Shown here: positions 8,726 to 39,628 of the stretch, piece after piece
Numbering within the stretch: position 1 is the stretch's first letter
Layout of the letters: each line of letters starts with the position of its first letter
Assembly: GCA_951406725.2 (NCBI GenBank)
Contig: OX597833.1
Span: 23,002,001-23,066,000, forward strand
Direction: 5' to 3'
Length of the DNA stretch: 64,000 nucleotides
DNA from: Octopus vulgaris
Taxonomy: Eukaryota
Notes under the pieces: model-generated
Database searches by the model: none
What the model saw: the letters and a program-made list of their open reading frames with translations, nothing else
What the model was told of the DNA's origin: nothing
Position numbers and translations under genes: made by a program

Positions 8726-11700
8726 ATATATATATATATATATATATATTAATAATAATAATAATAATAATAATAATAATAATAATTAATAATAATAATA
8801 ATAATAATAATAATAATAATTAATAATAATAATAATAATAATTAATAATTATAATAATAATAATAATAATAAAAATAATAATAATAAAAATATAAAAATA
8901 ATAATAATAATAATAATAAGAAGAAGAAGAAGAAGAAGAAGAAGAAGAAGAAGCTCAGGACTCAAAGCAGAGACAGAGGGATTTTTAATTGCAGCACAAG
9001 ACCAAAGCCTCCCCACCAGAAATTACCAAAAACATGTAATGAAAAGAAGTATTACAAGTAACTGCAGAATATGTGGAGATGGACAAGAAACAATAAATCA
9101 TATTATCTCTAGCTGCCCAGTCCTGGCTAAGAAGGAATATATTCACAGACATGACAAATTTGGAACCTACACACATTGGAAGCTATGTCAACATTATGGA
9201 ATAACAACAGAAAAAAGATGGTATAGGCACACACCAGAAAAGGTCACAGAAAACGAGAAAGCAACCATACTCTGGGATATGCCGATACACACAGATAGAG
9301 AAATTAAGGCCAACAGACCAGATATAGTTGTCAGAGACCATGAACAAAAAAATGCTTTCTAATTGATGTATCAATACCGGCTGATGACAACGTGTCTCTA
9401 AAAGAAATGGAGAAACTCTCAAAATACAAAGACCTGGAAATAGAGGTAACTAGAATGTGGAATCTGAAAACAGAAACAATTCCTATCATAGTAGGTGCAT
9501 TAGGCATGATAAAAAAATATTCAGACAAATACATAACAAAAACATAAAACTACTGAATAATAATAATAATAATAATAATAATAATAATAATAATAATAAT
9601 AATAATAAAAATAATAATAATAATAATAATAATAATAATAATAATAATCATAATGATAATAATAATAATAATAATAATAAGAAGAAGAAGAAGAAGAAGA
9701 AGCTCAGGACTCAAAGCAGAGACAGAGGGATTTTTAATTGCAGCACAAGACCAAAGCCTCCCCACCAGAAATTACCAAAAACATGTAATGAAAAGAAATA
9801 TTACAAGTAACTGCAGAATATGTGGAGATGGACAAGAAACAATAAATCATATTATCTCTAGCTGCCCAGTCCTGGCTAAGAAGGAATATATTCACAGACA
9901 TGACAAAGTTGGAACCTACATACATTGAAAGCTATGTCAACATTATGGAATAACAACAGAAAAAAGATGGTATAGGCACACACCAGAAAAGGTCACAGAA
10001 AACGAGAAAGCAACCATACTCTGGGATATGCCGATACACACAGATAGAGAAATTAAGGCCAACAGACCAGATATAGTTGTCAGAGACCATGAAGAAAAAA
10101 ATGCTTTCTAATTGATGTATCAATACCGGCTGATGACAACGTGTCTCTAAAAGAAATGGAGAAACTCTCAAAATACAAAGACCTGGAAATAGAGGTAACT
10201 AGAATGTGGAATCTGAAAACAGAAACAATTCCTATCATAGTAGGTGCATTAGACATGATAAAAAAAAATATATTCAGACAAATACATAACAAAAACATAA
10301 AACTACTGAATAATAATAATAATAATAATAATAATAAATAATAATAATAATAATAATAATAATAATAATAATAATAATAATAAATAATAAATAATAATAA
10401 TAATAATAATAATAATAATAATAATAATAATAATAATAATAATAATAATAATAATAATAAAATAATAATAATAATAATAATAATAATAATAATAATAATA
10501 ATAATAATAATAATAAGAAGAAGAAGAAGAAGAAGAAGAAGAAGAAGAAGAAGCTCAGGACTCAAAGCAGAGACAGAGGGATTTTTAATTGCAGCACAAG
10601 ACCAAAGCCTCCCCACCAGAAATTACCAAAAACATGTAATGAAAAGAAATATTACAAGTAACTGCAGAATATGTGGAGATGGACAAGAAACAATAAATCA
10701 TATTATCTCTAGCTGCCCAGTCCTGGCTAAGAAGGAATATATTCACAGACATGACAAAGTTGGAACCTACATACATTGGAAGCTATGTCAACATTATGGA
10801 ATAACAACAGAAAAAAGATGGTATAGGCACACACCAGAAAAGGTCACAGAAAACGAGAAAGCAACCATACTCTGGGATATGCCGATACACACAGATAGAG
10901 AAATTAAGGCCAACAGACCAGATATAGTTGTCAGAGACCATGAAGAAAAAAATGCTTTCTAATTGATGTATCAATACCGGCTGATGACAACGTGTCTCTA
11001 AAAGAAATGGAGAAACTCTCAAAATACAAAGACCTGGAAATAGAGGTAACTAGAATGTGGAATCTGAAAACAGAAACAATTCCTATCATAGTAGGTGCAT
11101 TAGGCATGATAAAAAATAAAAATATAAAAAAAATAAATAATAATAATAATAATAATAATAATAATAATAATAATAATAATAATAATAATAATAATAATAA
11201 TAATAATAATAATAATAATAATAATAATAATAATAATAAAAGAAGAAGAAGAAGAAGAAGAAGAAGAAGAAGAAGAAGCTCAGGACTCAAAGCAGAGACA
11301 GAGGGATTTTTAATTGCAGCACAAGACCAAAGCCTCCCCACCAGAAATTACCAAAAACATGTAATGAAAAGAAATATTACAAGTAACTGCAGAATATGTG
11401 GAGATGGACAAGAAACAATAAATCATATTATCTCTAGCTGCCCAGTCCTGGCTAAGAAGGAATATATTCACAGACATGACAAAGTTGGAACCTACATACA
11501 TTGGAAGCTATGTCAACATTATGGAATAACAACAGAAAAAAGCTGGTATAGGCACACACCAGAAAAGGTCACAGAAAACGAGAAAGCAACCATATTCTGG
11601 GATATGCCCATACACACAGATAGAGAAATTAAGGCCAACAGACCAGATATAGTTGTCAGAGACCATGAAGAAAAAAAATGCATTCTAGTTGATGTATCAA

Positions 11701-14164
11701 TACCGGCTGATGACAATGTGTCTCTAAAAGAAATGGAGAAACTCTCAAAATACAAAGACCTGGAAATAGAGGTAACTAGAATGTGGAATCTGAAAACAGA
11801 AACAATTCCTATCATAGTAGGTGCATTAGGCATGATAAAAATATTCAGACAAATACATAACAAAAACATAAAACTACTGATTAATAATAATAATAATAAT
11901 AATAATAATAATAATAATAATAATAATAATAATAATAATAATAATAATAATAATAATAATAATAATAATAATAAGAAGAAGAAGAAGAAGAAGAAGAAGA
12001 AGAAGCTCAGGACTCAAAGCAGAGACAGAGGGATTTTTAATTGCAGCACAAGACCAAAGCCTCCCCACCAGAAATTACCAAAAACATGTAATGAAAAGAA
12101 ATATTACAAGTAACTGCAGAATATGTGGAGATGGACAAGAAACAATAAATCATATTATCTCTAGCTGCCCAGTCCTGGCTAAGAAGGAATATATTCACAG
12201 ACATGACAAAGTTGGAACCTACATACATTGGAAGCTATGTCAACATTATGGAATAACAACAGAAAAAAGATGGTATAGGCACACACTAGAAAAGGTCACA
12301 GAAAACGAGAAAGCAAACATACTCTGGGATATGCCGATATACACAGATAGAGAAATTAAGGCCAACAGACCAGATATAGTTGTCAGAGACCATGAAGAAA
12401 AAAAATGCTTTCTAATTGATGTATCAATACCGGCTGATGACAACGTGTCTCTAAAAGAAATGGAGAAACTCTCAAAATACAAAGACCTGGAAATAGAGGT
12501 AACTAGAATGTGGAATCTGAAAACAGAAACAATTCCTATCATAGTAGGTGCATTAGGCATGATAAAAAAAATATTCAGACAAATACATAACAAAAACATA
12601 AAACTACTGATTAATAATAATAATAATAATAATAACAATAATAATAATAATAATAATAATAATAATAATAAAGAAGAAGAAGAAGAAGAAGAAGAAGCTC
12701 AGGACTCAAAGCTGAGACAGAGGGATTTTTAATTGCAGCACAAGACCAAAGCCTCCCCACCAGAAATTACCAAAAACATGTAATGAAAAGAAATATTACA
12801 AGTAACTGCAGAATATGTGGAGATGGACAAGAAACAATAAATCATATTATCTCTAGCTGCCCAGTCCTGGCTAAGAAGGAATATATTCACAGACATGACA
12901 AAGTTGGAACCTACACACATTGGAAGCTATGTCAACATTATGGAATAACAACAGAAAAAAAGATGGTATAGGCACACACCAGAAAAGGTCACAGAAAACG
13001 AGAAAGCAACCATACTCTGGGATATGCCGATATACACAGATAGAGAAATTAAGGCCAACAGACCAGATATAGTTGTCAGAGACCATGAAGAAAAAAATGC
13101 TTTCTAATTGATGTATCAATACCGGCTGATGACAACGTGTCTCTAAAAGAAATGGAGAAACTCTCAAAATACAAAGACCTGGAAATAGAGGTAACTAGAA
13201 TGTGGAATCTGAAAACAGAAACAATTCCTATCAAAGTAGGTGCATTAGGCATGATAAAAAAATATTCAGACAAATACATAACAAAAACATAAAACTACTG
13301 AATAATAATAATAATAATAATAATAATAATAATAATAATAATAATAATAATAATAATAAAAATAATAATAATAATAATAATAATAATAATAATAATAATA
13401 ATAATAATAAGAAGAAGAAGAAGAAGAAGAAGAAGAAGAAGCTCAGGACTCAAAGCAGAGACAGAGGGATTTTTAATTGCAGCACAAGACCAAAGCCTCC
13501 CCACCAGAAATTACCAAAAACATGTAATGAAAAGAAATATTACAAGTAACTGCAGAATATGTGGAGATGGACAAGAAACAATAAATCATATTATCTCTAG
13601 CTGCCCAGTCCTGGCTAAGAAGGAATATATTCACAGACATGACAAAGTTGGAACCTACATACATTGGAAGCTATGTCAACATTATGGAATAACAACAGAA
13701 AAAAGATGGTATAGGCACACACCAGAAAAGGTCACAGAAAACGAGAAAGCAACCATACTCTGGGATATGCCGATACACACAGATAGAGAAATTAAGGCCA
13801 ACAGACCAGATATAGTTGTCAGAGACCATGAAGAAAAAAAATGCTTTCTAATTGATGTATCAATACCGGCTGATGACAACGTGTCTCTAAAAGAAATGGA
13901 GAAACTCTCAAAATACAAAGACCTGGAAATAGAGGTAACTAGAATGTGGAATCTGAAAACAGAAACAATTCCTATCATAGTAGGTGCATTAGGCATGATA
14001 AAAAAATATTCAGACAAATACATAACAAAAACATAAATCTACTGAATAATAATAATAATAATAATAATAATAATAATAATAATGAAAGTAATAATAATAA
14101 TAATAATAATAATAATAATAATAAGAAGAAGAAGAAGAAGAAGAAGAAGAAGAAGAAGAAGAAT

Positions 14165-39529: not shown

Positions 39530-39628
39530 AAAGAGTTAGACCCAGCGGAGAGCTACAAGTACCTAGGGGTAATTGAAGGGGACGGAATAAGGCATTCAGT
39601 GATGAAGGAAAGGATCAGGAGAGAATGT
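39530..39628 (+). mobile_element. Reverse transcriptase motif-7 fragment of an R4/Dong-like element
   Basis: Translates KELDPAESYKYLGVIEGDGIRHSVMKERIRREC (YKYLG motif); sits immediately after the last (TAA)n. Confidence 0.65.

What the first reader, a model, noticed from the sequence alone, without database searches (positions are those of the whole stretch)
8750..39530. 31 kb array of 38 endonuclease-only retrotransposon cassettes separated by the element's own microsatellite target
Seen: 38 head-to-tail, same-strand, near-identical ~600 bp units, each carrying just the CCHC knuckle + PD-(D/E)xK endonuclease region and the extreme 3' terminus (AAAACTACTG), separated by length-variable (TAA)n(GAA)n. 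No unit has an RT catalytic domain. Established: R4-clade Dong elements are sequence-specific for (TAA)n microsatellites and encode exactly this C-terminal architecture. Inference: this is either a non-autonomous short internally deleted derivative that inserts repeatedly into the TAA tract flanking earlier copies (a self-regenerating target), or a new satellite DNA born from such an insertion. It could also act as a small-RNA source or decoy against the autonomous family. I do not know of a described macrosatellite of this kind in cephalopods.
Basis: partly seen in the sequence, partly recalled or inferred. Interest (0 to 1): 0.85.

Follow-up and report, generated by a model that had tools for sequence, protein, structure and literature searches.

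The report
Satellite born from one retrotransposon tail
In this genome assembly one broken tail-piece of a very common jumping gene, still single in three duplicated neighbouring regions, stands as 38 back-to-back copies, likely multiplied by mispairing of the simple repeats on either side of it rather than by repeated jumping, so it is likely a snapshot of satellite DNA being born.

Summary
Observation confirmed: 38 same-strand units, 97.9-100% identical, no RT domain. They are the 3' end of a TAA-targeting Dong/R4-like family with at least 4,734 genomic copies. The 173-bp 3' deletion is confined to the array (28 of 28 exact hits). The array lies in a four-copy segmental duplication: three sister copies hold one cassette at the same site, and a fifth site on another chromosome holds none. 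Unit bodies carry the sister cassettes' alleles (34 of 38 at 6 of 6 sites), and shared mutations cluster among neighbours (p=1e-4). So this is local amplification of one insertion, likely by unequal exchange between flanking TAA tracts, not a mobile non-autonomous element. Pieces of a second subfamily in the centre point to one later insertion. Garbled central sequence means copy number and order need long reads; no read-level test was obtained. Most units are frameshifted, and nothing supports a decoy or small-RNA role. TE-derived satellites are known; a single-insertion origin with empty, single and amplified states side by side is the variant. The scan had not noted this elsewhere.

The parts
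8750..39520 (+). whole array: 38 units with (TAA)n(GAA)n spacers
8953..9556 (+). unit 1, the common type: 5'-truncated Dong/R4-like 3' end (starts at residue 628 of the 853-residue frame of L038; linker end, CCHC knuckle, restriction-like endonuclease) with the 173-bp 3' deletion
14047..28457 (+). central block with a six-unit higher-order period (complete-tail units 8, 14, 20; shared substitutions in units 9/15 and 11/17; shared spacer interruptions)
14165..14940 (+). unit 8: cassette-type body, complete tail of subfamily B
19125..19900 (+). unit 14: switches from cassette-type to subfamily B alleles inside the body; only unit open to the native stop (19803)
24387..25163 (+). unit 20: cassette-type body, complete tail of subfamily B
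16640..17545 (+). unit 11: subfamily B upstream piece, body, and a garbled complete tail (16 gaps in 155 aligned bases); likely an assembly consensus mosaic of an intact B copy
21525..21908 (+). subfamily B upstream piece before unit 17, from the 5' truncation point of a ~1.17-kb copy; garbled near its join
22657..22803 (+). first ~145 bases of the same B upstream piece, before unit 18
27542..27853 (+). middle of the same B upstream piece, before unit 24
31781..39399 (+). right block with two-unit periodicity (units 30/33/35 against 31/32/34/36) and the highest divergence
7564..8749 (.). left flank shared with three paralogs on the same chromosome and one site on C8
39530..39630 (+). right flank begins with ~100 bases of a truncated copy of a second Dong-like family, which runs on intact at the empty C8 site; its TAA target is the tract the cassette entered

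Best explanation
The array is 38 tandem copies of one 5'-truncated tail of a TAA-targeting Dong/R4-like retrotransposon, likely multiplied at the DNA level by unequal exchange between the (TAA)n tracts that flank it, which would act as direct repeats. Order of events: (1) shown: an empty site with a TAA tract exists on C8; (2) shown: three sister copies of a segmental duplication hold one ~780-bp cassette at that site; inferred: the insertion came by target-primed reverse transcription before the region was duplicated; (3) shown: the array units share a 173-bp 3' deletion found nowhere else; inferred: it arose once, through a short A-rich microhomology, before amplification; (4) inferred: mispairing of the left with the right TAA tract gave the first dimer, and repeated unequal exchange gave 38 copies with two- and six-unit higher-order blocks; (5) shown: pieces of a different subfamily (B) lie in units 8-24; inferred: one ~1.17-kb copy retrotransposed into a spacer later and was recombined and duplicated with the six-unit block, or is scrambled there by assembly consensus. 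The array is most likely inert: not mobile, mostly frameshifted, no function indicated.
For: Deletion junction: 28 of 28 exact genome hits in the array. 5' junction: 26 of 29 hits in the array, 2 in paralogs, 1 on C3. Same flanks with one cassette in 3 of 3 paralogs, none at the C8 site; flanks differ by 0.8-1.6% among the four copies and 1.7-2.0% from C8. 34 of 38 bodies carry the paralog cassettes' alleles at 6 of 6 sites that separate them from subfamily B; all 38 share one further allele seen in 1 of 25 outside copies, and group together in the tree (81/87, not starred). Dispersed copies have 26 true 5' ends at scattered positions, whereas 34 of the 38 units start at one point. 16 shared substitutions lie 5.35 units apart on average against 13.0 in 10,000 shuffles (p=1e-4), and edge units are more diverged than central ones (2.7 and 4.9 against 1.2 substitutions), as unequal exchange predicts (general theory; passages of PMC5932611). 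Both end units are of the deleted cassette type and B pieces are central, so B was not the seed. In R2 the 3' UTR is needed for copying (passages of PMC10499050); by analogy the deleted units would not be copied in trans.
Against: No read spans the array in my data, so the count 38 and the unit order rest on the assembly alone. Central pieces are garbled (16 gaps in 155 bases in one tail, 3-6 gaps in three upstream pieces, against 0-2 in ~560-base bodies), as expected when reads of different units are piled up; the same piling could explain the low central divergence and the apparent recombinants. Tree support for the array clade is modest and the bootstrap had not settled. The first dimer-forming step is not observed; a rolling-circle burst followed by unequal exchange fits too. 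The 5' junction recurs on C3 (L031), which a mobile short form could also produce, though that copy has other alleles and no deletion.
Confidence: 0.72

Rival explanations
1. The array is largely an assembly product: a short real tandem (or two haplotypes of different length) was unrolled or merged into 38 units.
For: Garbled consensus-like sequence in units 3, 11, 17, 18, 24; 13 of the 22 central units show no substitution from the array majority; the locus lies in a near-identical four-copy duplication; no read-level support obtained.
Against: Nested shared substitutions and shared spacer interruptions at periods 2 and 6 need real mutation followed by duplication; edge units carry up to 7 substitutions each; a private deletion is shared by 33 units; the three complete tails are clean and identical.
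Confidence: 0.13
2. One rolling-circle burst: recombination between the two TAA tracts excised a circle carrying the deleted cassette, which was amplified and reinserted; unequal exchange only retouched the result.
For: Many units are identical or nearly so (mean 0.42% from the majority); all share both junctions; rolling-circle amplification is a proposed route to TE tandems (passages of PMC5932611).
Against: Spacer interruptions and substitutions are inherited in local blocks, and divergence rises towards both edges, which fits stepwise growth better than one burst.
Confidence: 0.09
3. A non-autonomous short derivative is reverse-transcribed in trans and inserts again and again into the TAA tract beside earlier copies.
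For: The family does insert beside earlier copies (dimers at L037, L038, L041, L047); a subfamily B copy appears inside the array; the same 5' junction occurs once on C3.
Against: 0 of 28 exact deletion-junction hits lie outside the array although TAA tracts are used genome-wide; most of the 3' UTR is deleted; neighbour-biased sharing of mutations is not expected from independent insertions.
Confidence: 0.04
4. The array is kept by selection as a small-RNA source or as a sink for the active family.
For: Units are about 98-99% identical to young dispersed copies; one later insertion landed in it.
Against: 38 units against at least 4,734 dispersed copies; three sister loci do without it; no raw-read RNA run was offered. 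Transcription was not tested.
Confidence: 0.03

Closest known systems
Dong elements of the R4 clade (Bombyx Dong, DongAg, DongBg; Dong-R4 families of octopuses)
   Same: Parent family has one RT-CCHC-endonuclease frame and sits in (TAA)n, as described for Dong (passages of PMC3812793, PMC7998251); Dong-R4 is reported as recently active in Octopus vulgaris (5 families, 1,129 insertions; Table 1 passage of PMC13282606).
   Different: The array units are a dead 3' fragment with a private deletion, multiplied as DNA; Dong copies are normally dispersed with differing 5' ends.
Drosophila R1 tandem array and other TE-derived satellites formed by double insertion (McGurk and Barbash 2018, PMC5932611, passages)
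   Same: Site-specific non-LTR element in head-to-tail array, expanded by unequal exchange, with later insertions, deletions and likely higher-order repeats.
   Different: There the seed is a dimer from two insertions; here all bodies trace to one insertion and the second insertion is central and later. The flanking microsatellite target is inferred to play the part that LTRs play in that paper's first mechanism.
Satellites derived from LINE 3' ends: common cetacean satellite (L1), chicken HinfI repeat (CR1), Drosophila 18HT (HeT-A/TART) (passages of PMC9659126)
   Same: Monomer is the 3' part of a non-LTR element.
   Different: Those are established satellites; this is a single young locus (0.8% mean pairwise difference) with its empty and single-copy precursor states still in the same genome.

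Membership tests
R4/Dong clade (parent family) | Single frame with reverse transcriptase, CCHC knuckle and C-terminal restriction-like endonuclease | tested here: met
   L038 853-residue frame: RVT_1 E=3e-31, zf-RVT E=5e-5; aligns with solved R2 proteins over residues 67-834 including the endonuclease motifs, E=6.5e-37. L038 itself has a stop between its N-terminal and main frames.
R4/Dong clade (parent family) | Insertion into (TAA)n | tested here: met
   46 of 46 complete 3' ends followed by TAA; 24 of 34 scored 5' ends preceded by TAA, and 8 of the 10 misses are not true ends but a gap in the reference copy. The loci were chosen from search hits, not at random.
R4/Dong clade (parent family) | N-terminal Myb/SANT-like domain without zinc fingers (PMC7998251) | tested here: inconclusive
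   No Cys-His motif; no Pfam match; confident four-helix model for residues ~100-190; several SANT/Myb folds (ISWI SANT, TRF1, DMAP1, Cdc5, R2 itself) among matches at Z 4.3-5.3, tied with unrelated folds; Foldseek best E=0.45.
R4/Dong clade (parent family) | RT phylogeny inside R4/Dong with named references (R4, Dong, Rex6) | not testable with these tools
   The 120 listed homologues bore no element names; no tool gave named reference sequences.
Non-autonomous mobile derivative | Dispersed copies sharing the same junctions, each with its own target | tested here: not met
   none with the deletion; one unrelated copy shares only the 5' point.
Non-autonomous mobile derivative | Retained 3' end needed for recognition by the RT | tested here: not met
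   173-bp deletion leaves only the last dozen bases of a 97-nt 3' UTR; the requirement is taken by analogy from R2 (PMC10499050).
TE-derived satellite grown by unequal exchange | Head-to-tail monomers of common descent at one locus | tested here: met
TE-derived satellite grown by unequal exchange | Neighbour-biased sharing of variants, higher-order periods, diverged edges | tested here: met
   (p=1e-4; edges 2.7 and 4.9 against centre 1.2); periods 6 and 2. Assembly consensus could mimic the low central divergence.
TE-derived satellite grown by unequal exchange | Array length confirmed by reads and variable among individuals | not testable with these tools
   Only short contigs of public runs were offered.
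Double-insertion-seeded satellite (R1 type) | Seed dimer from two independent insertions | tested here: not met
   Both end units and 34 of 38 bodies are of one type; the second subfamily is confined to units 8-24.

The most novel reading that the evidence does not exclude
Microsatellite-targeting retrotransposons arrive with built-in direct repeats: every Dong insertion is bracketed by (TAA)n on both sides, so each of thousands of single copies is a latent satellite seed that needs no second insertion, and the arrays it spawns multiply target tracts that catch further insertions. Dong-rich genomes would then hold many such nascent satellites, polymorphic from 1 to dozens of copies, and this four-copy gene cluster would be a natural experiment with empty, single and amplified states.
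Probability: 0.3. Interest if true: 0.65.

Novelty: new variant of a known kind. Interest (0 to 1): 0.42.

Why it matters
How a dispersed element without internal repeats becomes a satellite is an open question; the main documented route needs two insertions at one site. Here the empty site, three single-copy sisters and the amplified array are all in one genome, and the alleles point to one insertion whose own microsatellite target likely supplied the direct repeats. That makes the route directly testable with long reads across individuals. It is a mechanism snapshot, not a new kind of mobile element, and no function is indicated.

Tried and rejected
Non-autonomous mobile cassette: rejected. 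Seed dimer of cassette plus subfamily B copy: considered, rejected as the seed because B pieces are central only (the 'BBB' shown there for units 9, 15 and 21 is the previous unit's tail caught by my window and was dropped). Mis-mapped dispersed donor for the B pieces: none of the 37 dispersed best matches to the tail and none of the 39 to the upstream piece was identical (40 scored of 386 and of 701 candidates), and the four other sites with one of its alleles lack the rest. Read support: one search listed 24 runs, 20 holding words of the stretch, uninformative because the family is abundant; laid contigs of four runs on a complete-tail unit and showed the one-A loss at 8-10% of family depth, but the deletion joint lay too near the end of that stretch to be seen and 27 joints were not shown; no further read-level test was obtained. 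One search used a mistyped motif (3 irrelevant hits). Homologue search gave no named R4/Dong references. Pfam, profile-to-PDB and fold searches of the N-terminal domain were inconclusive. Rfam found nothing above threshold in the full-length copy L038. A bacterial promoter scan is not meaningful here. ESM Atlas gave no usable hit for the exon at 60554. Regions about one duplication unit further left and right held no further copy of the site (L068, L069, L072, L073, L083, L084).
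Full report
Observation. The array is there as described. BLASTN with the first unit finds 38 copies on the + strand from 8953 to 39399 at 97.9-100% identity, each preceded by TAA runs and nearly always GAA runs. The period is 692-1162 bases, median 778. No RT-domain sequence lies in the array. The unit starts at residue 628 of the 853-residue frame of a near full-length relative, L038, and covers the end of the linker, the CCHC knuckle and the restriction-like endonuclease. 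As a gene it is mostly dead: 28 of 38 units lack one A inside the endonuclease region, 8 of 38 are open through its motifs, one reads to the native stop. The one-A loss is also seen at 8-10% of family depth in contigs of four public runs and in two of the three sister cassettes, so it is probably not just a homopolymer error. The units are not uniform: 33 have a short 3' end, three keep a 173-bp longer complete end, two have garbled ends, four carry upstream element sequence.

Parent family. The genome G000 has 2.8 Gb in 227 contigs; no tool named the species, earlier scan notes call it octopus. An exact 24-mer of the element continuing upstream of the cassette occurs 4,734 times. L038 has RT, CCHC and endonuclease in one frame, best matched by solved R2 proteins. 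46 of 46 complete 3' ends among fetched dispersed copies are followed by TAA; 24 of 34 scored 5' ends are preceded by TAA, 8 of the 10 misses being a gap in my reference rather than true ends. This matches Dong of the R4 clade (passages of PMC3812793; PMC7998251), which is reported in octopuses (passages of PMC9115989; PMC13282606). The N-terminal Myb/SANT feature is inconclusive and a tree with named references could not be built. So it works like Dong; membership is likely but not fully tested.

The deleted 3' junction has 28 exact hits in the genome, all in the array; one form of the complete junction has 27 hits, 24 of them dispersed. The 5' junction has 29 hits: 26 in the array, two nearby on the same chromosome, one on C3. 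A looser motif gave 91 hits, 53 outside the array, the paralogs and the C3 site; I fetched 21 of the 53, and all 21 are longer elements with a point change or small deletion. A mobile short derivative is therefore not supported. The GAA run is not proof of an internal deletion: TAA then GAA is also seen at another truncation point (L087) and behind tails, and the C3 copy has the same 5' point with other alleles, a complete tail and a stuttered 5' end.

Empty, single and amplified states. The left-flank motif occurs five times. Three hits are sister copies of a segmental duplication on the same chromosome (L032, L034, L033), each with the same left and right flanks and exactly one cassette with a complete tail; two of them also hold a longer antisense element in the same tract. 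The fifth, on C8 (L067), has both flanks and only a TAA tract, followed by a truncated copy of a second Dong-like family whose first ~100 bases form the array's right flank. Flanks differ by 0.8-1.6% among the four sisters, with no clear branching order, and by 1.7-2.0% from C8. An exon-like frame at 60554 is also present four times in this cluster.

Descent of the units. Mean pairwise difference in the array is 0.82%; the commonest unit is 0.37-1.06% from the three sister cassettes; all 38 units group together (81/87, unsettled bootstrap). At six sites that separate the sister cassettes from a dispersed subfamily B, 34 of 38 bodies have the cassette allele throughout. Sixteen substitutions shared by two or more units lie 5.35 units apart on average against 13.0 in shuffles (p=1e-4), with period 6 in the centre and period 2 on the right, and edge units are more diverged than central ones; spacer interruptions follow the same blocks. 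This is what stepwise unequal exchange leaves (passages of PMC5932611). The first dimer is not observed; mispairing of the left and right TAA tracts is my inference, since they are the only direct repeats around a single cassette.

A second insertion. The three complete tails lack an allele shared by all three sister cassettes and carry four others; 37 dispersed copies match them at 99%, and some of the same loci are top matches for the upstream pieces. In 20 fetched copies of this subfamily B the diagnostic alleles match the tails of units 8, 14, 20, the upstream pieces, the first body site of units 11 and 17 and the 3' half of unit 14. The pieces add up to one ~1.17-kb truncated copy with private alleles found at no scored outside site. 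Because both end units are of the deleted type, B came later. Whether the B/cassette chimeras are real recombinants or consensus mosaics cannot be told here.

Against my reading. Several central pieces are garbled far beyond the error rate of the bodies (16 gaps in 155 bases), so the assembly is unreliable at base level there and copy number and order could be wrong. Public runs gave only short contigs of an abundant family, and no read-level test of the junction or the length was obtained. Low central divergence could reflect consensus rather than homogenisation. A wholly artefactual array is unlikely given the nested variants, but I leave 0.13 for substantial inflation.

Function. Nothing points to one. 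The deletion removes most of the 97-nt 3' UTR, which in R2 is needed for copying (passages of PMC10499050). The array adds under 1% to the family. Transcription was not tested.

Comparison and novelty. Satellites made from LINE 3' ends and tandem arrays of site-specific non-LTR elements are known (passages of PMC9659126; PMC12628747; PMC5932611). Six full-text searches (listings and abstract starts only) showed no Dong-derived satellite or cephalopod case; the octopus repeat annotation has no occurrence of 'satellite' in its main text, but I did not see its supplements, and most subscription papers are not searched. PMC3774820 (passages) was read and not used. The scan's earlier notes hold nothing on this sequence.

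Noticed in passing
window 60554-61090 (+): Exon-like frame with a hydrophobic N-terminal stretch, present four times in this cluster at 97-100% identity and once on C29 at 77%. Its last 40 residues remind me of the start of dystroglycan's cadherin-like domain (recalled; Pfam, PDB and Atlas gave no match).
   Followed up: partly
L031 4560-5135 (C3): Copy with the same 5' point as the array units but a stuttered 5' end (many short re-starts of the first 20-55 bases) and that whole stuttered end duplicated with a piece of flank; could record repeated template re-priming, or a read artefact.
   Followed up: partly
L032 1180-4704 and L033 1262-4577 (-): Longer antisense element back-to-back with the single cassette in two of the four paralogs, with different 5' ends; alleles are shared between the inverted copies, suggesting gene conversion.
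   Followed up: partly
L064 near 2654 (C7): Dispersed copy truncated within a few bases of the same point as the array's subfamily B copy and sharing one rare allele beside it, but differing at the other diagnostic sites; unexplained.
   Followed up: partly
L063, L065, L066: The element's internal GAA (poly-Glu) run varies from about 4 to 35 repeats among copies.
   Followed up: no
window 39596-39919 (-) and 6216-6644 (-): Mariner-type transposase fragments; the first matches HTH_48 (E=3e-16) and interrupts the second Dong-like copy in all four paralogs; the second had no Pfam match and is labelled from recall.
   Followed up: partly
L063 (C31), downstream of the element: Tandem short exons that look EGF-like (recalled motif) separated by long GAT-rich introns with TAA runs.
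   Followed up: no
L037, L038, L041, L047: Mixed dimers: a copy's TAA tail is directly followed by another truncated copy of the same or the second family.
   Followed up: partly
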